The notes under the pieces were generated by a model. It did not search any database. It was given only the letters and a program-made list of their open reading frames with translations, and was not told the DNA's origin. A program made the position numbers and the translations under genes. From a virus (Duplodnaviria > Heunggongvirae > Uroviricota > Caudoviricetes), in IMG/VR virus record IMGVR_UViG_3300000059_000035, positions 1 through 11,838 of that record: a stretch of 11,838 nucleotides of DNA. One strand, given 5' to 3'. Shown in pieces: positions 1 to 11,237 of this stretch. The stretch's first letter is position 1, and every line of letters begins with the position of its first letter.

Positions 1-1
1 C

Positions 2-3000
2 CTGAAAGTCGTCGATGGCATTCTGGTATCTCCGGACGATTACGAAGGTAAGGACGGGGTATTTACCGGCTATCAGCTACGAACCGTAAACGGCAAAAAC
101 GGGAATGAGTTCAAGAAGGCCAACAATAAAGACGGCTTCCTGAACCAGTTAGAAAACTACCTGAACGGTGTTAAACCGCGTGGGCAGAACGCTAACGAGT
201 ACCTGGATAAAATTGCTCAACTGGAAGTTAGTTTTAACGACTGGTTACGCACCCACCCGCAGGCGGATCAGATAGCCCGCGAGTATAACGACGCATTCAA
301 TGGCTTCATTCCGTTCACGCACTCTAACGCACCGCTTGGCCTGGAAGGGATTAGTGGAAAGCGCATTCCTCTGACTTATCAGAATGAAGAAGTTCGGCGC
401 TTGTCAGAAGATGGGCGCGGCATCATGGGATTTGGTACCGGGCTGGGTAAAACCACGACCGCGCTTGCGCTTGAGGCGTATAACTTCGAAACAGGTCGCA
501 CTAAACGCACGTGTATTGTTGTTCCGAAGGCGGTTTATCAGAACTGGTATCACGAGGCACAGAGCTTCTACAGTGCTGATGCCTTCGCAAATATGATGTT
601 TATCGGTCTGGATGAAGTTCGTGATGAAGACGGCAATATTCTGACCGCGCCGGTGCTTGATGAAAATGGCGAACCCCGCCTCGACAGTAACGGGCAGCCT
701 CTTACCAGAAATGTTGTGAAAGAGTCCGCCAGCGCCGTTATCGTTCAGCGCATGAACATGATCCCGTCGTCAAATTGGCGAACGGTCATCATGACAAAAG
801 AACAATTCGCGTCTATCCCGCTACGAGAAAAAACCATCGAGGAGAACTCACAGCAAGCTGTCTTTAATGCTGTGGAAATGGGGCGTCTTGACCTGGCGTC
901 TGGTAAACACCGTGATGCGCAGAAGAAGAACAAGATTAAGGATCAGGCCGCGGATACCGGTACAACGAAGAAGCAGAATATCCCGTACTTTGAGGATATG
1001 AACTTCGATAGCGTGATTGCCGACGAGGGGCATAACTACCGCAACTCCTTTAATGCCGGGCGTGAAGCGGGACAACTGGCATATTTGCCTAACCCGGCAG
1101 TATCCAAGATGGCCCGCGACATGGCTGTAAAAGCTGCGTACATGATGAAACGCAACAACGGGCGTGGTGTAGTCATGCTGACGGCAACACCGCTGGTGAA
1201 CAGTCCGATTGATGCCTTCAACATGCTGTCTACTGTCATTCCGCAGGAAGAGTGGATGCGCATGGGCATCATTACGCCTGATGATTTCGTTCGTGTGTTT
1301 GGTAAAACAGCCACAGTTCAGGTCCAGAAAATTTCCGGGGAAGTGGAAGAGAAGCAGGGGCTGGTTGGCTTCCAGAACCTTGATGGCCTGCGTGGTATTT
1401 TCCATCGCTGGACTACTCTGAAGACTGCTGCGGACGTCGGGGCGACGGTTAAAATCCCTGATATTGTCGAGAATACCTTGCAGATCCCGATGACAGGGGA
1501 GCAGGAGGCTGCTTATGAAGAGCTTCGTAAGCGTGCACAGGAGTTAAGTAGTAAAGATGCGCTGACGGTTGATGAAAACGGGCATATCACAAACGAAAAA
1601 CCGGATGATTTCATCTTCTCCATCATCCGCGACATGGATAAGGTTGCTATAGATCCGGATCTGTATGCCAGTGCGATTACATTCCAGTTCCCCGTTGAGC
1701 TTGCAGACAAGGTAAAAGCTATTGCTGATGCCCTGCCAAAAGTAGCTGGCGGTAAAGTGGCAGATGATGCAGACGAGGCCGAAGAAGACGGCGCTGGTGG
1801 GCTGGTTAGTACGCGCACCAGTAAGGTAGTGAAGACCACCTTTAGTGAACATCCGGCGCATGTTGAAATACGTGCCAGCATTGAACTGGAAGCTGAAATA
1901 CTGAAGGCCATTGCTGCCGCCGGGATTGATCTGCAGCAGGTATCACACCCCATCCCGCCGAAGTATGCCGCGCTGATCGAAAACCTTCGTGAAGGTCTGA
2001 AGAACGGTAAACAAATTGTCTTCATTGATGAAAAAGCCCAGCACCAGAAGCTGCGCCGTATTATCGCCAGTGCACTGCAAATGCCGGAGCAGGAGATAGG
2101 CATTATCAATGCGACGACCGTTAGCCAGGCTGGCGGCATCAAGCTGAAGAAGGTGAATAAGCCGACTGAACCTACTCCGAATAAAAACGGTGAATACAAA
2201 GAAGGGGCATGGGAAACCTACTACAGCAAACTTGCCCAATATGAGGATTATCTCTCAGCTAAAAATGATGCTGGCCTTGAGGGTATGGAAGGCATTGCCG
2301 CCGACTATAACGAAGGGCGCACGCGCATCATTATCTGTAACAAGAAGGCTGAAGTAGGTATTAACCTGCATATCGGGACAACCGATATCCACCACCTGAC
2401 ACTACCCTGGACACCAGCCAGTATCGACCAACGAAATGGGCGCGGTGCGCGCGTAGGTTCACCGCAAGAGAAGGTCAATGTTCACTACTATTGTGGCAAA
2501 GGCACATTCGACGACTTCCGTCTGGATACGCTGAAACGTAAGAAAGACTGGATCAAGATGGTGATGACCTCCGATATGTCAGAGATCGCCAATGGTGATG
2601 CGGATGATGCTGATGAACGCGCCATTATGCTGGCGGCAAACCCGGAAGAACGCCGCGCAATCATGGCTCGCCAGGCGCAAGAGCGTGAAGAACGTCTGAA
2701 ACTGAAAGCACAGCGCGAGGCCAACAATGCTCTCGATATCTACCTAAAAGCGGCAAACGCCGCCGGAAAAGATATCGGCATGATGGAGACAGAACTGAAA
2801 AGCGCGATGGAGCAGATAGAGTATTACCAGCGCAATCTTGACGACCTGATAAAAGCGGGCACGAACAGGAATGGGCAAAAATACGCGCTTGAGCAGTTGA
2901 GTAGCTACAGAAAACGTGCGCGGGTGCTGCGGTTTGCGATCACCAGGGCAAAAGACGCGGATACCATAATGAAACGCTCTCGTGGTGATGTGGAGCGCGC

Positions 3001-4735
3001 TATTAAGTCTGGTGTGCTGGATATCAGTATCGATGTTATTCAGAACCCACAGGAATATATGCGCACTGACAAGAATATCCTGTTGCATAAAGGTAGTTAT
3101 TACCGTGCAGTCATTGATGATCGCGAAACAACAGCGATTGTCCGGGTGGAAAAAATTGACGGTGAAAAAGCACAGTACATCTGCCGTATCGCCTGGCTGG
3201 ATAGAGCAAGTCGTTACGCTCGATCACCGGGGTCAATCGTTACATTGCCGTTTGACTCTGTGATTGAAGCGGTAACTTTTGAAGAGGGGGTAGCTGAATC
3301 GCGCGCAACGGCTGCGCGTGGTGTTCAGTGCCACCAGCTATCAACAATACTTACTCGCGATCAGTTCTATGATGCTATTCGCAATGGGGTAATGAATGTT
3401 ATTGCTGGTAAACCTGGTAATGCATGGGGCGGTGGGTCAGCTATTAAATACTGGGCATATCGCACAGATGATGGTCAGATCGCGCTGTCATCGGCCTATG
3501 ATGGCGTGATAGGCCAAAAAATCGGGCGAGCATCGGATATAGCACCTGAACGATGGATATATCCAGATGGCAACGATGAGGCGCTGAAGCGTGAAGTGGC
3601 AAAAATACAAGCCAGTGATAACCCGCTGAATATCGTGGACGGAGAGGGATTCCTCCAGGCATTGTATGGGTATGATTACATCCAGGGAATGCAGGCATGG
3701 GGCGCACAGGCAACGATGGATGATGTTGCCAAGGAGTTCGAAAACTGGATGGCTGGGCGTGGTCTGTCAGGTCGTTCGCTTAATAAAGTCACTTCTGAAG
3801 ATATTCTTAGCCTGTTCCGCAAACCGTCCGGAGAAGGTCTGGAATCATTCTGGAGGACCGTGCTGGCATACCGTTTATTCCAGGGCAGGATGAAAGCCTT
3901 TAGCAATATCGATGATATTGAACGGATGTTTAATCAGGTCAAGATAGCGAAAATTAAGACGAAGATCGAAAAAACACGTTCTGCGCTGGTGGCCTGGCGC
4001 GATGCATTGTTTGAGCAATATAAATCACTCAGTGATGCAGATGGATGGGCGGCACTGGAACAGTTGGCGAATAATGGGGTAGATGGAGCGAAACTCGCCA
4101 TTGTCCAGGCTGATAACCCCCTGGAATCACCGGCAGCACAGTGGATTAAGGTGGGGGCTGTCATCAATGCATTTGATGAAAAACACATTAGTAAGGACGA
4201 TTTTGCTGATGCTGTTTCTGTTAATCGCCTGGTAGAAATGGCTACCCGCCGCGCCCGTGAGTTGAAAGACGGTGACTATGTGAATGAGTTGCCGGATGCG
4301 CTCAAATCAGCAACGTGGCAAGACTATGTATCGCTGAAAAACGGCGGGGCCACCGAATCAGAGATCGCGGAAAGGCTTGAACAGGCTGAAAGCAAAAGAG
4401 AAGAGCAGGCGGCAGTGGCAGAAGCCAGAGCTGATGAAGCGGCGAATGATGACTATATCATTGTGGTTAATGATAAGCCGATTCGCGCTAAGGCGCGTGT
4501 TCGCGGGCGCTGGTGGAGCGTCAGCGAGGACGTTGGCGCGGTTTATCTCATTGCCGACCAACCAGGTTCCTCGACAATACGGAACGCCAAAGACGCGATT
4601 AAGAAGATTGGCGGGCGTTTCTGGAATTTTGAAGTGAATCCGGTCGCGGATGTGGACTTTGACCGTCCGGCGTGGATGGTATCTACGCGTTACTCGGTAG
4701 ATGAACTGCGTAAAATAATCGCCGATGCGGCTTAA
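2..4735 (+). CDS. Giant multidomain protein, 5'-truncated by the window edge (1578 codons visible); SF2 DEGH-box helicase core followed by a ~750-aa C-terminal region of unknown function
   Basis: Frame 2 is open from position 2 through the TTG at 401 where the ORF track begins (I walked every codon; no stop), ending at TAA 4733-4735. Walker A GFGTGLGKTT at 428-460, DEGH box at 1022-1033, LTATP (motif III-like) at 1178-1192, motif VI QRNGRGARVG at 2429-2458. Acidic tract DDADEAEEDG and a charged coiled-coil-like segment (ERRAIMARQAQEREERLKLK). No convincing start or RBS in-window, so the N-terminus lies upstream. Confidence 0.85.
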   Translation: MKVVDGILVSPDDYEGKDGVFTGYQLRTVNGKNGNEFKKANNKDGFLNQLENYLNGVKPRGQNANEYLDKIAQLEVSFNDWLRTHPQADQIAREYNDAFNGFIPFTHSNAPLGLEGISGKRIPLTYQNEEVRRLSEDGRGIMGFGTGLGKTTTALALEAYNFETGRTKRTCIVVPKAVYQNWYHEAQSFYSADAFANMMFIGLDEVRDEDGNILTAPVLDENGEPRLDSNGQPLTRNVVKESASAVIVQRMNMIPSSNWRTVIMTKEQFASIPLREKTIEENSQQAVFNAVEMGRLDLASGKHRDAQKKNKIKDQAADTGTTKKQNIPYFEDMNFDSVIADEGHNYRNSFNAGREAGQLAYLPNPAVSKMARDMAVKAAYMMKRNNGRGVVMLTATPLVNSPIDAFNMLSTVIPQEEWMRMGIITPDDFVRVFGKTATVQVQKISGEVEEKQGLVGFQNLDGLRGIFHRWTTLKTAADVGATVKIPDIVENTLQIPMTGEQEAAYEELRKRAQELSSKDALTVDENGHITNEKPDDFIFSIIRDMDKVAIDPDLYASAITFQFPVELADKVKAIADALPKVAGGKVADDADEAEEDGAGGLVSTRTSKVVKTTFSEHPAHVEIRASIELEAEILKAIAAAGIDLQQVSHPIPPKYAALIENLREGLKNGKQIVFIDEKAQHQKLRRIIASALQMPEQEIGIINATTVSQAGGIKLKKVNKPTEPTPNKNGEYKEGAWETYYSKLAQYEDYLSAKNDAGLEGMEGIAADYNEGRTRIIICNKKAEVGINLHIGTTDIHHLTLPWTPASIDQRNGRGARVGSPQEKVNVHYYCGKGTFDDFRLDTLKRKKDWIKMVMTSDMSEIANGDADDADERAIMLAANPEERRAIMARQAQEREERLKLKAQREANNALDIYLKAANAAGKDIGMMETELKSAMEQIEYYQRNLDDLIKAGTNRNGQKYALEQLSSYRKRARVLRFAITRAKDADTIMKRSRGDVERAIKSGVLDISIDVIQNPQEYMRTDKNILLHKGSYYRAVIDDRETTAIVRVEKIDGEKAQYICRIAWLDRASRYARSPGSIVTLPFDSVIEAVTFEEGVAESRATAARGVQCHQLSTILTRDQFYDAIRNGVMNVIAGKPGNAWGGGSAIKYWAYRTDDGQIALSSAYDGVIGQKIGRASDIAPERWIYPDGNDEALKREVAKIQASDNPLNIVDGEGFLQALYGYDYIQGMQAWGAQATMDDVAKEFENWMAGRGLSGRSLNKVTSEDILSLFRKPSGEGLESFWRTVLAYRLFQGRMKAFSNIDDIERMFNQVKIAKIKTKIEKTRSALVAWRDALFEQYKSLSDADGWAALEQLANNGVDGAKLAIVQADNPLESPAAQWIKVGAVINAFDEKHISKDDFADAVSVNRLVEMATRRARELKDGDYVNELPDALKSATWQDYVSLKNGGATESEIAERLEQAESKREEQAAVAEARADEAANDDYIIVVNDKPIRAKARVRGRWWSVSEDVGAVYLIADQPGSSTIRNAKDAIKKIGGRFWNFEVNPVADVDFDRPAWMVSTRYSVDELRKIIADAA

Positions 4736-4746
4736 CAGATAAGGAG

Positions 4747-4764
4747 CGGCCCCAGCCGGGGCCG
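4747..4764 (+). other. GC-rich hairpin (7-bp stem CGGCCCC/GGGGCCG, 4-nt loop) between an AAGGAG Shine-Dalgarno (4741-4746) and the ATG at 4772
   Basis: Perfect inverted repeat read directly; no U-tract follows, so it is not a canonical intrinsic terminator. Confidence 0.6.
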
Positions 4765-4771
4765 GATTTGA

Positions 4772-5206
4772 ATGACGACATTAATTGACACTGTAAAACC
4801 GACGGAATCCTACCTTGAGGATATTTTGCCGCAGGCGCTCAATGGCAGGAGTGAAGAGGCGTTTCTGGATGCATATCTGGATGGTATGGTGGAAAGGCTG
4901 AAACGAGATCCACAGCTTTATCACCTTTATGGCCCGTGGTGGCCTGCGCTTAAAACGTTATTGCTGGAGCGCGGCGACATATCATTTGGACAAGTTGTAG
5001 ATAGTGATGTGGCAGAGATCTACAAAATGAGTCGCCCGGCGCTTACGGTTTTAGCCGGGCATCTGTATTCAAGCGATCGCCTGGAAAATGACGCGGTATA
5101 CAATCCCGTTCATGCTCTGGAAGTCGCGCCTTATGCTGATGATACAGAGCCATATGTGTACACAAGTTACGACGAGTCGATAGAGAAATATCGAATCATG
5201 GGGTAG
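4772..5206 (+). CDS. Hypothetical acidic protein, 144 aa
   Basis: ATG ORF 36 nt downstream of the giant gene stop; about 25 D/E versus 12 K/R by my count; stop TAG 5204-5206 lies 2 nt before the next ATG. Confidence 0.6.
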   Translation: MTTLIDTVKPTESYLEDILPQALNGRSEEAFLDAYLDGMVERLKRDPQLYHLYGPWWPALKTLLLERGDISFGQVVDSDVAEIYKMSRPALTVLAGHLYSSDRLENDAVYNPVHALEVAPYADDTEPYVYTSYDESIEKYRIMG

Positions 5207-5208
5207 CT

Positions 5209-5469
5209 ATGCGAAAGAATCGTAGGTTTACGATCGACGACTTAAAAGCGTACTCACAAGGGAAGGGATACGCCCTTGAATACCACCGTTATAAGCGGGT
5301 ATTTACCCTGCGGCATATAGAAAACCCTTCGAAATGGGGATGGATTTATTTTCCGCACACTGACGATAAGCTGGTGGGCCTTGTTGATGATTTATCCTAT
5401 GAAGGATGGATGATCGCTATCGACAAGGCGGTTACAGAAATTAACGAACCGGATAAAATAAACCATTAA
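5209..5469 (+). CDS. Hypothetical protein, 86 aa
   Basis: ATG at 5209 is 2 nt after the upstream stop (TAGCTATG), suggesting translational coupling; same strand and context. No recognisable motif. Confidence 0.5.
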   Translation: MRKNRRFTIDDLKAYSQGKGYALEYHRYKRVFTLRHIENPSKWGWIYFPHTDDKLVGLVDDLSYEGWMIAIDKAVTEINEPDKINH

Positions 5470-6317: not shown

Positions 6318-6625
6318 GCAGAAAACACCACGTAAATCTGACGTTTGCTGATGACGCCGGAAGAACCAGAAGCATAACCATGAAAGTTGCTTCCAGGAAA
6401 GTAACCGCTCCACTTATACGAGAGGCCGTAAGTGAACTTGAGATGAGTGAGAATGCAGCTCTGTTATCGGTAAGCTGGCTGGGGAAAATGACGGATCAGG
6501 AATACTCGGATGGTATACCCCACGGTGAGCGGCAGATAGTAAAGCGCGCGCTTAGAATTTCAGAGGTAGTTGTCGTACTGATAGCTTTGATTTATATGGC
6601 ATACATGCTACTTCAACACGTCTAA
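6314..6625 (+). CDS. Hypothetical small protein with a C-terminal hydrophobic (probable transmembrane) segment; start uncertain (TTG 6314 or ATG 6380)
   Basis: TTG 6314-6316 overlaps the upstream TGA (TTGA) with GGGAG at 6301-6305; alternative ATG at 6380. C-terminus ISEVVVVLIALIYMAYMLLQHV is strongly hydrophobic. Stop TAA 6623-6625. Confidence 0.4.
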   Translation: MSRKHHVNLTFADDAGRTRSITMKVASRKVTAPLIREAVSELEMSENAALLSVSWLGKMTDQEYSDGIPHGERQIVKRALRISEVVVVLIALIYMAYMLLQHV

Positions 6626-6633
6626 ACGGTCAT

Positions 6634-6660
6634 AAACCCGCCAGTTGGCGGGTTTTTTGT
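6634..6660 (+). terminator. Rho-independent terminator
   Basis: Stem CCCGCC (6637-6642) / GGCGGG (6647-6652), loop AGTT, followed by TTTTTT (6653-6658). Confidence 0.8.
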
Positions 6661-8529: not shown

Positions 8530-8606
8530 ACCTCGTTACGGCTGGCGTGGCAAACGCGACAACCGGGATAGGACGGTGACGGGCGGAGAGAGAGCCGCTT
8601 CAAGAT

Positions 8607-8673
8607 AAAAGCCGACTATGGATTCCTTTCTGCGGGCCTTTGAAAGTGAATCTTGCTCAGGCAGTCGGCTTTT
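8607..8673. repeat. Long-stem inverted repeat (perfect 11-bp stem, 45-nt interior), tRNA-sized (67 nt)
   Basis: AAAAGCCGACT (8607-8617) pairs with AGTCGGCTTTT (8663-8673). Confidence 0.45.
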
Positions 8674-8803
8674 ATGTTGATACGTAGCGATAACCGCGAC
8701 AGGCGCGGCGGTAAGTATGGCGGGGTTATTCCTTCCCCGTTGAGGACACCGAGTTGCCAGGTTGACCATACGCCTAAGTGGCAATACCGCGAGTGGGATA
8801 TTT

Positions 8804-8828
8804 GCCCACCTTCGGGTGGGTGTTTTTT
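8804..8828 (+). terminator. Rho-independent terminator
   Basis: Stem CCCACC (8805-8810) / GGTGGG (8815-8820), loop TTCG, followed by TGTTTTTT. Confidence 0.8.
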
Positions 8829-9012
8829 CAGTGTTTTCGTCATGGTTAGCGACTTTGCGGCGGTTTAGAACCCGACCATTAAAGTAAATGCAAACGATGA
8901 TCTGATGATGGTAGCGGCCTAAGAAGCCTGACGCCACGGGGTATGAGTCGTCCCCCGTCAAAAAATCGACCGCAGAGTGTCCCCGTCTGTGTATTAGGGA
9001 ACGGGGAGGCAT

Positions 9013-9089
9013 AACAGGCAAGGGCGCTGGTGTGATTAACCAGATGAATGAGAAGGGGCAGGTCTTTCTGGTCAGCGCCCTTACCTGTT
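9013..9089. repeat. Long-stem inverted repeat (17-bp stem with 1 mismatch, 43-nt interior), tRNA-sized (77 nt)
   Basis: AACAGGCAAGGGCGCTG (9013-9029) pairs with CAGCGCCCTTACCTGTT (9073-9089). Confidence 0.45.
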
Positions 9090-9288
9090 GCGTCCTTCCC
9101 GCGTAACAGCCATTGGTTAATGGCTTTCTGGATAATGTCTTGTAACGGGTATATCCCGTCATGCTGAAGGCGCTAATCACGCTGGAAGCCAGGGTTATGC
9201 ATCCCCTGTTACCGAATTGCAGCCAGGGCGCGGTGCGCCGAAAAGCATACGGAGGTGGAAGCCCTCGCCGGAGACGTACCCGGCAAGT

Positions 9289-9365
9289 GATGGTGTAGCT
9301 CAGTAGGATAGAGCAGCAGCCTTCTAAGCTGTCGGTCGGTGGTTCGAATCCACCCACCATCGCCA
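9289..9365 (+). tRNA. tRNA-Arg (anticodon TCT)
   Basis: Cloverleaf read by hand: acceptor GATGGTG/CACCATC, D-arm GCTC-AGTAGGATA-GAGC, anticodon stem GCAGC/GCTGT with loop CTTCTAA, T-arm GGTGG-TTCGAAT-CCACC, discriminator G, encoded CCA. D-arm and anticodon loop resemble E. coli argU as I recall it. Confidence 0.9.
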
Positions 9366-9370
9366 ATTTA

Positions 9371-9457
9371 GGGGAGTTAGTCCGTAGGGGTAGCGGGGTA
9401 GACTGTAAATCTACTGTCATTGCGACTCGGATGGTTCGACTCCATCACTCCCCACCA
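9371..9457 (+). tRNA. tRNA-Tyr (anticodon GTA), type II with long variable arm
   Basis: Acceptor GGGGAGT/ACTCCCC, anticodon stem GTAGA/TCTAC with loop CTGTAAA, long variable arm TGTCATTGCGACTCG (similar to E. coli tyrT as I recall it), T-arm GATGG-TTCGACT-CCATC, encoded CCA. D-arm pairing is imperfect as drawn by hand. Confidence 0.8.
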
Positions 9458-9461
9458 AATT

Positions 9462-9537
9462 GCCGGTTTAGCTCAGTTGGTAGAGCAGTCGCTTTGTAAG
9501 CGAATGGCCAGCGGTTCAAGTCCGTTAACCGGCACCA
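9462..9537 (+). tRNA. tRNA-Thr (anticodon TGT)
   Basis: Acceptor GCCGGTT/AACCGGC, D-arm GCTC-AGTTGGTA-GAGC, anticodon stem GTCGC/GCGAA with loop TTTGTAA, T-arm AGCGG-TTCAAGT-CCGTT, discriminator A, encoded CCA. Confidence 0.9.
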
Positions 9538-10378: not shown

Positions 10379-11203
10379 ATGTCTCAGAACTTAGACGCAA
10401 CCGCAATTAATCAAATCCATGCCCTTATTTCTGCTCAGGGTGTTAATGAAATTATCAGTAAGATTGGTGCCGATGCTGTGGCATTGCCTGAGAATTTCCG
10501 CATTCATGATCTGGAAAAATTTAATTTAAATCGCTTCCGTTTCCGTGGTGCGCTTTCCACTGCCAGCATCGATGACTTTACCCGTTATTCTAAAGATCTT
10601 GCAGATGAAGGCACCCGCTGCTTTATCGATGCCGATAATATGCGTGCCGTCAGTGTGCTTAACCTGGGTACTATTGATGAACCAGGTCACGCAGATAACA
10701 CCGCCACTCTCAAACTGAAAAAGACAGCACCGTTCTCTGCNCTGTTGTCTGTTAANGGCGAGCGTAACTCCCAGAANTCACTGGCAGAATGGATTGAAGA
10801 CTGGGCCGACTACCTTGTGGGCTTTGATGCTAATGGTGACGCCATTCAGGCAACCAAAGCGGCGGCGGCTATCCGTAAAATCACAATTGAAGCGAACCAG
10901 ACCGCTGATTTTGAAGATAATGACTTCAGCGGCAAACGCTCCCTGATGGAGTCTGTCGAAGCGAAGACCAAAGACATTATGCCAGTGGCATTTGAATTTA
11001 AATGCATTCCGTTTGAAGGTCTGAAAGAACGTCCGTTTAAATTACGCCTCAGCATTATCACTGGCGATCGTCCGGTACTGGTTCTGCGCATTATTCAGCT
11101 GGAGGCGGTGCAGGAAGAAATGGCTAACGAATTTCGTGATCTGCTTGTTGAGAAATTCAAAGACAGCAAAGTAGAAACCTTTATTGGTACTTTCACCGCC
11201 TGA
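10379..11203 (+). CDS. yfdQ: YfdQ-like protein (DUF2303 family), 274 aa
   Basis: ATG with SD GAGGA at 10368-10372; 274 aa as in E. coli YfdQ; three codons contain N (10741, 10756, 10777). Stop TGA 11201-11203. Confidence 0.75.
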
Positions 11204-11215
11204 TTTCATTACTGC

Positions 11216-11237
11216 AAATGCCCCTGCGGGGGCATTT
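11216..11237 (+). terminator. Terminator-like hairpin (9-bp stem AAATGCCCC/GGGGCATTT, loop TGCG) with weak U-tract
   Basis: Perfect inverted repeat immediately after the yfdQ stop; followed by ATGG rather than a clean T-run, so it may be an attenuator or partial terminator. Confidence 0.5.

What the first reader, a model, noticed from the sequence alone, without database searches (positions are those of the whole stretch)
4741..4774. Shine-Dalgarno / hairpin / start-codon arrangement at the 144-aa gene
A strong AAGGAG (4741-4746) sits 25 nt upstream of the ATG at 4772, too far for a conventional SD. Exactly between them is a perfect GC hairpin (4747-4764). If it folds, the effective SD-to-ATG spacing becomes about 7 nt. 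Structure-mediated shortening of this kind is documented for phage T4 gene 38. The same hairpin could instead occlude the weak proximal GGA, acting as a translational switch.
Basis: partly seen in the sequence, partly recalled or inferred. Interest (0 to 1): 0.45.

Follow-up and report, generated by a model that had tools for sequence, protein, structure and literature searches.

The report
Split ribosome-binding site of phage ulx gene
A short, very stable RNA hairpin sits between the ribosome-docking sequence and the start codon of the phage anti-restriction gene ulx. The same layout is kept in P1/D6-like phage-plasmids while the hairpin's letters change in matched pairs. It is most likely a "split" ribosome-binding site of the rare kind known from phage T4 genes 38 and 25.

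Summary
The layout is TAA (4733-4735), UAAGGAG (4740-4746), an all-GC 7-bp hairpin with a 4-nt loop (4747-4764, -16.3 kcal/mol), 7 nt, then ATG (4772).

The window comes from a D6-like, P1-related phage-plasmid. The 144-aa gene is ulx, a Dar anti-restriction component. The upstream gene is darB-like.

I examined 173 ulx loci with 46-100% protein identity. Of these, 171 keep the same module. It comes in 40 distinct versions:
- GGAG, then 0-2 nt, then a 6-8 bp GC-rich stem with a 3-5 nt loop.
- 6-9 nt from stem to ATG, with one outlier at 13 nt.
- 13 different stem sequences.

Five of the seven stem pairs show changes on both sides. Pairing is 98% in register and 30-53% when slid. Many loops are GNRA, and P1's is UUCG.

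Almost no version has a usable start-proximal SD, and none has a U-tract. The stop-to-SD distance varies (1-14 nt), while the SD-stem and stem-ATG distances do not.

T4 gene 38, read here directly, has almost the same geometry. So this is a split ribosome-binding site and a new member of a known kind. It is not a terminator. The "switch" idea rests on a G at 4765 seen in only one other sequence. Function has not been tested experimentally.

The parts
2..4735 (+). 3' part of a darB-like gene (SNF2/helicase anti-restriction protein). The reading frame is open to the start of the window.
   Evidence: Translation of 2-520 has no stop. The frame is open for 1577 codons upstream of the stop. Pfam gives SNF2-rel_dom and Helicase_C. 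Homologous CDSs of 6837 nt are annotated as SNF2-related or 'similar to P1 darB' in E. coli plasmids and phage D6.
4733..4735 (+). TAA stop codon of the darB-like gene.
   Evidence: The stop-to-GGAG distance is 7 nt here and 1-14 nt in relatives, so it is not the constrained distance.
4740..4746 (+). Shine-Dalgarno sequence UAAGGAG of ulx, 25 nt upstream of the start codon in linear sequence.
   Evidence: Predicted anti-SD duplex is -8.5 kcal/mol. GGAG is present in 36 of the first 37 distinct junctions; the other has GAGGA. It is 78% unpaired in context.
4747..4764 (+). RNA hairpin. 5' arm 4747-4753 CGGCCCC, loop 4754-4757 AGCC, 3' arm 4758-4764 GGGGCCG.
   Evidence: -16.3 kcal/mol, P(pair) 0.99. 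Covariation. There are 13 stem variants in relatives.
4765..4771 (+). 7-nt single-stranded spacer GAUUUGA between the hairpin and the start codon. It includes the in-frame TGA at 4769-4771.
   Evidence: The spacer is 6-9 nt in 39 of 40 distinct modules. It has no usable SD: the anti-SD duplex is -3.3 here only because of G4765, and about 0 in close relatives.
4772..5206 (+). ulx homologue (144 aa). ATG start at 4772-4774.
   Evidence: 99.3% identical to D6 orf14 ('similar to P1 ulx') and 46-47% identical to P1 Ulx. The N-terminus is conserved from Met1. Relatives annotate the same start.

Best explanation
The darB-ulx junction carries a split (non-contiguous) ribosome-binding site.

Proposed mechanism:
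1. On the darB-ulx mRNA, the 18-nt GC hairpin (4747-4764) folds essentially all the time.
2. The hairpin starts directly after the last base of the SD and ends 7 nt before the AUG.
3. Folding therefore loops out 18 nt and places UAAGGAG at a functional distance (about 7 nt plus the width of the helix base) from AUG 4772.
4. A 30S subunit can then pair its anti-SD with 4740-4746 and place AUG 4772 in the P site, without melting the hairpin.
5. This gives constitutive, SD-dependent initiation of ulx just downstream of the darB stop codon.

Shown:
- The sequence layout and the predicted stability of the hairpin.
- The accessibility of the SD.
- The lack of any other SD.
- Family-wide conservation of the geometry, with compensatory stem changes and RNA-type stable tetraloops.
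- Near-identity of the geometry with T4 gene 38.

Inferred:
- That ribosomes actually use this SD across the folded hairpin.
- That the hairpin raises rather than merely tolerates translation.
For: 1. Layout and stability in the window.

2. Identity of the genes. The window matches D6-like phage-plasmids at 92-98%, and the gene is ulx.

3. Conservation.
- 37 distinct junctions from the first 93 loci all have stop / GGAG / hairpin / ATG.
- With the metagenome loci, 171 of 173 loci and 40 distinct modules have it.
- SD-to-stem is 0 nt in 34 modules, 1 nt in 5 and 2 nt in 1.
- The stem is 6-8 bp and the loop 3-5 nt.
- Stem-to-ATG is 6-9 nt in 39 of 40 modules.
- Linear SD-ATG spacing is 22-32 nt.

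4. Covariation.
- There are 13 stem sequences.
- On alignment A7, 98.1% of cells pair, and 5 of 7 pairs change on both sides.
- The covariation score is 0.574 against 0.138 +/- 0.031 in shuffles (0 of 500 reach it).
- Slid controls pair at 30-53%.
- RNAalifold predicts the same helix independently.
- Parsimony on an Ulx tree gives repeated independent changes, for example 7 at pair 6.

5. RNA-level signature. 8 of 24 distinct stem+loop combinations have GNRA loops (random expectation about 1 in 32), and P1 has UUCG.

6. Only one SD. The upstream SD:anti-SD duplex is -5.6 to -8.5 kcal/mol in all 37 junctions. The spacer gives -3.3 or weaker in 36 of 37. In the exception the match lies only 1-2 nt from the ATG.

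7. The variable distance is stop-to-SD (1-14 nt), not SD-to-stem or stem-to-ATG.

8. Precedent. T4 genes 38 (22 to 5 nt) and 25 (27 to 11 nt) are experimentally supported split TIRs (PMC3014915; PMC7297116). The T4 37-38 junction reads TAAGGAG / 7-8 bp stem / UUCG loop / TAAAT / ATG, -15.6 kcal/mol.
Against: - No experiment on ulx translation exists in any lineage, and none could be run here.
- The start codon itself is only 29% unpaired in the 220-nt context fold of the window.
- One module (L131) has a 13-nt spacer, and two loci (L132, L158) lack the SD altogether.
- Conservation of a hairpin next to an SD does not by itself prove that the hairpin enhances initiation. It could be tolerated for another reason, such as mRNA stability.
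- The covariation counts come from related sequences and from alignments anchored on the stem.
Confidence: 0.75

Rival explanations
1. The hairpin is mainly an mRNA stability or processing element. It could be a 3' exonuclease barrier for the long darB message or a 5' cap-like stabiliser for a processed ulx-lxc message. It could also act as an insulator between darB and ulx translation. On this view ulx is made by termination-reinitiation coupling, and the SD-hairpin adjacency is incidental.
For: - The element lies in a short intercistronic gap right after a 6.8-kb gene.
- GC-rich hairpins with GNRA or UUCG loops are typical stabilisers.
- The stop codon lies only 5-18 nt from the stem.
Against: - A stabiliser would not need a 0-2 nt offset from an invariant GGAG, nor a 6-9 nt distance to the ATG, in 39 of 40 modules while the stop-to-SD distance drifts from 1 to 14 nt.
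- Reinitiation over 30-42 nt across an unmelted -15 kcal/mol hairpin, with no use of the SD, would leave the invariant SD unexplained.
Confidence: 0.12
2. It is an intrinsic (Rho-independent) terminator or attenuator that lowers transcription into ulx.
For: There is a GC-rich stem-loop directly after a stop codon. In the D6 lineage it is followed by GAUUUGA, which has three U.
Against: - The terminator scan did not report it.
- In all 37 junctions the 8 nt after the stem hold only 0-4 T, and 0 in several lineages with A-rich tails such as AAAAAGAA.
- ulx has no annotated promoter of its own between darB and ulx in the densely annotated P1 record. Termination there would silence a gene needed together with DarB.
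Confidence: 0.03
3. It is a translational switch. The hairpin masks a weak start-proximal SD (GGA, 4764-4766), or otherwise alternates with another fold to turn ulx on and off.
For: G4764-G4765-A4766 exists in the window. Its first G is in the stem, and it gives a -3.3 kcal/mol anti-SD duplex.
Against: - G4765 is found only in the window and one metagenome contig; all other D6-type relatives have A there (duplex about 0). The other lineages have unrelated spacers.
- No conserved alternative pairing partner was found.
- The hairpin has P(pair) 0.99.
- The SD and AUG lie outside the helix in every lineage. At most, in some folds, the helix takes in the last base of GGAG.
Confidence: 0.03
4. The palindrome acts at the DNA level, as a protein-binding site or a recombination/module-boundary hot spot, rather than in RNA.
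For: - The sequence is a perfect inverted repeat.
- In two P1-like contigs (L132, L158) the darB side is replaced by unrelated DNA, with the breakpoint exactly at the 5' base of the hairpin.
Against: - The sequence is not conserved, only the pairing is. There are 13 stems and at least 20 loops, which argues against a sequence-specific DNA-binding protein.
- GNRA and UUCG loop enrichment is an RNA property.
- G-U pairs occur in the stems (TG / GT). They are tolerated in RNA but are mismatches in DNA cruciforms.
- There is only one copy in the window.
Confidence: 0.03

Closest known systems
Phage T4 gene 38 split translation initiation region (gene 37-38 junction)
   Same: The order of parts is the same, and I read the T4 sequence directly here.
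- Upstream-gene TAA next to or overlapping the SD (TAAGGAG).
- SD abutting a 7-8 bp GC-rich stem with a tetraloop. The loop is UUCG in T4, as in P1 ulx.
- A short A/U-rich spacer, then ATG.
- Similar stability: -15.6 against -16.3 kcal/mol.
- Linear spacing 22 nt reduced to 5 nt in T4, against 25 nt reduced to 7 nt here.
   Different: - The genes are unrelated (tail-fibre assembly against the Dar anti-restriction component Ulx), and so are the phages (virulent T4 against temperate P1/D6 phage-plasmids). There is no sequence homology.
- In T4 the stem takes in the last two SD bases. Here the SD is fully outside the stem.
- T4 has mutational support. This case has only comparative support.
[quoted passage not shown]
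   Same: - An SD far from the AUG (27 nt) is brought closer (11 nt) by an intervening hairpin.
- It lies at an intercistronic junction.
- The structure is conserved across close relatives.
- The sequence read here is GAGG / C / CUCAAAG-AGUU-CUUUGAG / 8 nt / AUG.
   Different: - The T4 hairpin is A-U rich and weak (about -7.4 kcal/mol).
- It lies inside the coding region of gene 26, whose stop overlaps the gene 25 start.
- Here the module is wholly intergenic, all-GC, and about twice as stable.
E. coli thrS split ribosome-binding site (Sacerdot 1998, cited in PMC7297116)
   Same: A stable hairpin interrupts the ribosome-binding region without blocking initiation.
   Different: - In thrS the hairpin lies upstream of a normally spaced SD and separates it from an upstream single-stranded enhancer.
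- It is also the operator for autoregulation by ThrRS.
- Here the hairpin lies between the SD and the AUG, and its variable loop gives no sign of a protein operator.
Intrinsic terminators and REP-like intergenic hairpins
   Same: A GC-rich perfect stem-loop just after a stop codon.
   Different: There is no U-tract. It is single-copy. It has a fixed register to the SD and ATG.

Membership tests
Split / non-contiguous ribosome-binding site (T4 gene 38 and 25 type) | A good SD lies too far from the start codon in linear sequence to work conventionally (more than about 15 nt). | tested here: met
   25 nt in the window and 22-32 nt in 40 distinct modules. The anti-SD duplex is -8.5 kcal/mol.
Split / non-contiguous ribosome-binding site (T4 gene 38 and 25 type) | A stable hairpin is contained wholly between the SD and the start codon, leaving both outside the helix. 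| tested here: met
   The helix is 4747-4764, -16.3 kcal/mol, P(pair) 0.99. The SD is 78% unpaired. The AUG is only 29% unpaired in the context fold, through weak local pairing.
Split / non-contiguous ribosome-binding site (T4 gene 38 and 25 type) | Folding brings the SD-AUG spacing into the functional range (about 5-11 nt). | tested here: met
   7 nt in the window. 6-9 nt in 39 of 40 modules, with one at 13 nt. T4 values of 5 and 11 nt come.
Split / non-contiguous ribosome-binding site (T4 gene 38 and 25 type) | There is no alternative, properly spaced SD. | tested here: met
   The spacer anti-SD duplex is -3.3 kcal/mol or weaker in 36 of 37 junctions. The exception lies 1-2 nt from the ATG.
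Split / non-contiguous ribosome-binding site (T4 gene 38 and 25 type) | The structure is conserved in relatives by compensatory change. | tested here: met
   Five of 7 pairs change on both sides, 98% of cells pair, and slid controls give 30-53%.
Split / non-contiguous ribosome-binding site (T4 gene 38 and 25 type) | Mutations that destabilise the hairpin lower translation, and compensatory ones restore it. | not testable with these tools
   This needs reporter fusions or toeprinting. No held paper reports it for ulx.
Intrinsic (Rho-independent) terminator | A GC-rich hairpin is followed directly by a U-tract. | tested here: not met
   The hairpin is present, but only 0-4 T occur in the 8 nt after the stem across 37 junctions. 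The terminator scan did not report it.
SD- or AUG-sequestering translational switch | The SD or the start codon is base-paired within the regulatory helix, and there is a conserved alternative fold. | tested here: not met
   The SD core and the AUG lie outside the helix in all modules; at most, some folds take in the last base of GGAG. The proximal GGA depends on a G at 4765 found only in the window and one other contig.
Curated RNA families (Rfam 15) | A match to a covariance model. | tested here: not met
   There are only two chance-level hits (E = 1.5 and 2.8), and they lie elsewhere in 4600-4900.
Dispersed repeated palindromes (REP-like) | There are multiple copies in the replicon. | tested here: not met
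   There is one exact copy in the window. The only 2-mismatch match is an unrelated hairpin at 11219-11234.

The most novel reading that the evidence does not exclude
The strictly conserved 0-nt junction between the SD and the stem (34 of 40 modules) may mean that the SD:anti-SD helix stacks coaxially on the mRNA hairpin. That would form one composite helix on the 30S platform.

Because the module sits 1-14 nt after the darB stop, it could also let 30S subunits released at the darB stop be captured by the SD. They would then be handed across the unmelted hairpin to the ulx AUG. That would be a structured 'hop' coupling the synthesis of DarB and its packaging helper Ulx.

If so, this would be a defined, evolutionarily tuned initiation geometry and not merely a tolerated insertion. 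P1 may use it more than once, since there is a second candidate at gene 21-pmgG.
Probability: 0.15. Interest if true: 0.6.

Novelty: new member of a known kind. Interest (0 to 1): 0.4.

Why it matters
Few natural split ribosome-binding sites have been documented; the classic cases are T4 genes 38 and 25. This one comes with an unusually rich natural mutation series: 13 stem sequences and about 20 loops, with fixed SD-stem and stem-AUG distances. It occurs in P1, a genetically tractable model phage.

That makes the following questions directly testable:
- How does a 30S subunit accommodate a folded hairpin between the SD and the P site?
- What spacing rules apply?
- Does stacking at the SD-stem junction matter?

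There are practical consequences too:
- The result fixes the ulx start codon and explains an apparent "missing RBS". Gene callers and RBS-strength calculators that use linear spacing would mis-score this site.
- It is relevant to engineering P1 or D6 phage-plasmids and to setting the expression ratio of the Dar anti-restriction proteins DarB and Ulx.

Tried and rejected
- **Plain MAFFT alignment.** Aligning the 37 junctions (A2) put the stems out of register, so it could not be used for pair counts. I replaced it with stem-anchored equal-length segments (A3 and A7) and with my own SD-anchored register.
- **Covariance model.** Model R1 and cmsearch recovered only 30 of 37 junctions. The alignment was also contaminated by reverse-strand hits to the palindrome, so A4 was not used.
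- **Terminator hypothesis.** Rejected because there is no U-tract.
- **Switch hypothesis.** Rejected because the proximal GGA depends on a G at 4765 found only in the window and L107.
- **Rfam.** No family matched.
- **Repeat family.** Only one copy is present.
- **Literature.** The P1 genome paper (PMC523184) is not held. Searches for ulx and split-RBS terms found no description of this element. The densely annotated P1 record has no feature on the junction. An earlier mention in unheld papers cannot be excluded.
- **An apparent oddity.** The ORF listing gave the upstream ORF as 401-4735 (1444 aa), which looked like a truncated or disrupted darB. This reflects how the tool lists ORFs. The frame is open to the edge of the window.
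- **The downstream gene.** I tested whether the 86-aa gene downstream is P1 Lxc. No similarity was found.
- **A second P1 candidate.** For the site upstream of pmgG, only relatives at 91-99% identity were retrieved. No covariation test was possible.

Full report
**What is in the sequence**

The finding's coordinates are exact.
- The large upstream ORF ends with TAA at 4733-4735.
- UAAGGAG occupies 4740-4746.
- An uninterrupted inverted repeat occupies 4747-4764: CGGCCCC / AGCC / GGGGCCG, seven G-C pairs and a 4-nt loop.
- GATTTGA fills 4765-4771.
- The ATG of the 144-codon ORF is at 4772.

The codon just before the ATG is an in-frame TGA, so no upstream start is possible.

As RNA, the hairpin behaves as follows.
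- It is the minimum-energy and centroid structure of both the 34-nt and the 81-nt contexts, at -16.3 kcal/mol for the short segment.
- In a 220-nt context its pairs have a mean probability of 0.99.
- The SD stays 78% unpaired.

A composite-motif scan looked for an SD, 0-2 nt, a GC-rich stem of at least 6 bp, 5-10 nt, and then the start of an ORF of at least 40 aa. It finds one site in the window. The mean in dinucleotide shuffles is 0.02.

**What the genes are**

The region matches about 90-kb E. coli plasmids at 92-98% identity, and phage D6 at 92%. These are P1-related phage-plasmids.
- The 144-aa protein is 99.3% identical to D6 orf14 ("similar to P1 ulx") and 46-47% identical to P1 Ulx.
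- Ulx is a virion protein of the Dar anti-restriction system and helps DarB localisation (PMC9024508; PMC12810830).
- The upstream gene is the darB-like SNF2 helicase gene.
- Its frame is open to the edge of the window. The "1444 aa" reported by the ORF lister is an artefact of how ORFs are listed.
- Ulx homology starts at Met1 in all lineages: M-T/A-T-L-I/S-D-T. All annotated relatives use the same ATG.

**Comparative test**

P1 and Cronobacter phage JK004 have the same layout with a different stem:
- P1: TAA C AGGAG CGCCCGG UUCG CCGGGCG UCGCAUAAU AUG.
- Three of the seven pairs are flipped relative to the window.

I then collected ulx loci from three sources:
- one genome per species (8 loci);
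- IMG/VR (80 loci);
- metagenomes (80 loci).

Hosts include Escherichia, Pantoea, Enterobacter, Citrobacter and Cronobacter.

The first 93 loci give 37 distinct stop-to-ATG junctions, and every one has the module. Over all 173 loci, 171 have it. The 40 distinct SD-to-ATG modules break down as follows:

| Feature | Values |
|---|---|
| SD-to-stem distance | 0 nt (34 modules), 1 nt (5), 2 nt (1) |
| Stem length | 6-8 bp |
| Loop length | 3-5 nt |
| Stem-to-ATG distance | 6-9 nt (39 modules), 13 nt (1) |
| Linear SD-ATG spacing | 22-32 nt |
| Hairpin energy | -10.5 to -16.1 kcal/mol (first 37 junctions) |

By contrast, the stop-to-SD distance varies from 1 to 14 nt. The constrained unit is therefore SD-hairpin-AUG, not stop-hairpin.

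**Covariation**

There are thirteen different stems.

On the 13-sequence stem-anchored alignment A3, all cells pair and three pairs change on both sides.

On the 23-sequence alignment A7:
- 98.1% of cells pair. The three unpaired cells all belong to one row, which MAFFT shifted by a column.
- Five of seven pairs change on both sides.
- The covariation score is 0.574 against 0.138 +/- 0.031 in column shuffles (0 of 500 reach it).
- Sliding the 3' partner by 1-3 columns lowers pairing to 30-53%.

RNAalifold predicts the same helix without being told it.

Fitch parsimony on an Ulx protein tree gives repeated independent changes: at least 2 at pair 3, 7 at pair 6 and 4 at pair 7.

Loop sequences are free to vary but are enriched for exceptionally stable RNA tetraloops.
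- 8 of 24 distinct stem+loop combinations have GNRA loops, against a random expectation of about 1 in 32.
- P1 has UUCG.
- G-U pairs also occur in the stems.

These features point to selection on an RNA structure, not on a DNA site.

**Which function fits**

- The upstream SD pairs with the anti-SD at -5.6 to -8.5 kcal/mol in all 37 junctions.
- The spacer between the hairpin and the ATG has essentially no anti-SD complementarity in 36 of 37. The exception has AAGGAA only 1-2 nt from the ATG.
- So ulx has one usable SD. It is 22-32 nt away in linear sequence, and 6-9 nt away once the hairpin is folded.
- The tail after the stem has 0-4 T in 8 nt, and none in several lineages. The terminator scan does not report the site.
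That G is found only in the window and one metagenome contig; every other D6-type relative has A.
- No Rfam family matches, and the palindrome is single-copy in the window.

**Comparison with the known cases**

T4 genes 38 and 25 are the established split translation-initiation regions.
- The spacing falls from 22 to 5 nt in gene 38 and from 27 to 11 nt in gene 25.
- Destabilising mutations reduce initiation.
- Reporter and DMS data exist for gene 25 (PMC3014915; PMC7297116).

I read both T4 junctions directly.
- Gene 37-38 is GCA-UAAGGAG / 7-8 bp GC-rich stem / UUCG loop / UAAAU / AUG, at -15.6 kcal/mol. This is the same order of parts, the same position right after the upstream stop, and the same tetraloop as in P1 ulx.
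- Gene 25 has a weaker A-U stem inside the gene 26 coding region.

By the same counting, the window goes from 25 to 7 nt and P1 from 27 to 9 nt. All the sequence-level defining features of the class are met. The mutational criterion cannot be tested here.

**Novelty and limits**

I found no description of this element.
- The densely annotated P1 record (535 features) has nothing on the junction.
- Full-text searches for ulx and for split-RBS terms returned nothing relevant.
- The P1 genome paper itself is not held, so an earlier remark cannot be excluded.

The mechanism is known, so this is a new member of a known kind. The hairpin as a conserved RNA structure is close to certain. That it acts as an initiation-enabling bridge is inference from geometry and precedent; I put that at about 0.75.

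The main rival is a stability or insulator hairpin with ulx made by reinitiation. It does not explain the invariant SD or the two fixed distances.

**Other observations**

- The P1 genome has only one other site with this composite motif, upstream of pmgG at the gene 21-pmgG junction. The relatives retrieved were too close (91-99%) to test covariation.
- Two P1-like metagenome contigs (L132, L158) have the darB side replaced by unrelated DNA. The breakpoint lies exactly at the 5' base of the hairpin, the SD is lost, and the 3' arm carries a G-to-A change.

Noticed in passing
L094:9556-9591 (-), which is P1 NC_005856 54556-54591 (-): This is a second candidate split RBS in P1, at the gene 21-pmgG junction: TAA AGGAGGAGGCCGG(A/G)GAACUCCGGCCUUUAACUUGA AUG. 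It has an SD-rich run, a 6-10 bp hairpin and 7-10 nt to the ATG of pmgG. It is the only site in the 94.8-kb P1 genome other than ulx that fits the composite motif. The 80 relatives fetched are 91-99% identical and give only 5 junction variants, so covariation could not be assessed.
   Followed up: partly
L132:1380-1503 (also L158): In these P1-like metagenome contigs the 3' end of darB is replaced by unrelated AT-rich DNA. Homology to P1 resumes exactly at the 5' base of the ulx hairpin. The SD is gone and the 3' arm carries G-to-A (CCGGAC). An in-frame ATG 51 nt upstream could extend the ORF. This is either a natural 'SD-less' variant or a module-boundary recombination point. The 315-aa ORF upstream has no Pfam hit.
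   Followed up: partly
window 1-4735: the ORF listing reports the upstream ORF as 401-4735 (1444 aa, TTG start). In fact the frame has no stop back to base 2. The darB-like gene is simply cut by the edge of the window; it is 6837 nt in D6 and in the plasmids.
   Followed up: yes
window 4765: G at this position is seen only in the window and in metagenome contig L107 (PPYF01653838.1).
   Followed up: yes
window 5209-5469: This 86-aa gene starts 2 nt after the ulx stop, in the position that lxc holds in P1. It has no detectable similarity to P1 Lxc and no Pfam hit.
   Followed up: partly
window 9289-9537: This is a cluster of three tRNA genes: Arg-TCT, Tyr-GTA and Thr-TGT. The 294-aa minus-strand ORF at 8536-9420 overlaps it, has no Pfam hit, and is probably not a gene. 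A related plasmid carries two further tRNAs and a Tad2 anti-Thoeris gene downstream.
   Followed up: no
window 6634-6655 and 8803-8822: These are two canonical intrinsic-terminator-like sites (GC stem plus T-run) on the + strand. The first lies right after the ORF ending at 6625. They make a useful contrast with the ulx hairpin, which lacks a T-run.
   Followed up: no
window 10379-11203: This 274-aa ORF is a full-length DUF2303 protein (E = 6e-91). Its function is unknown.
   Followed up: no
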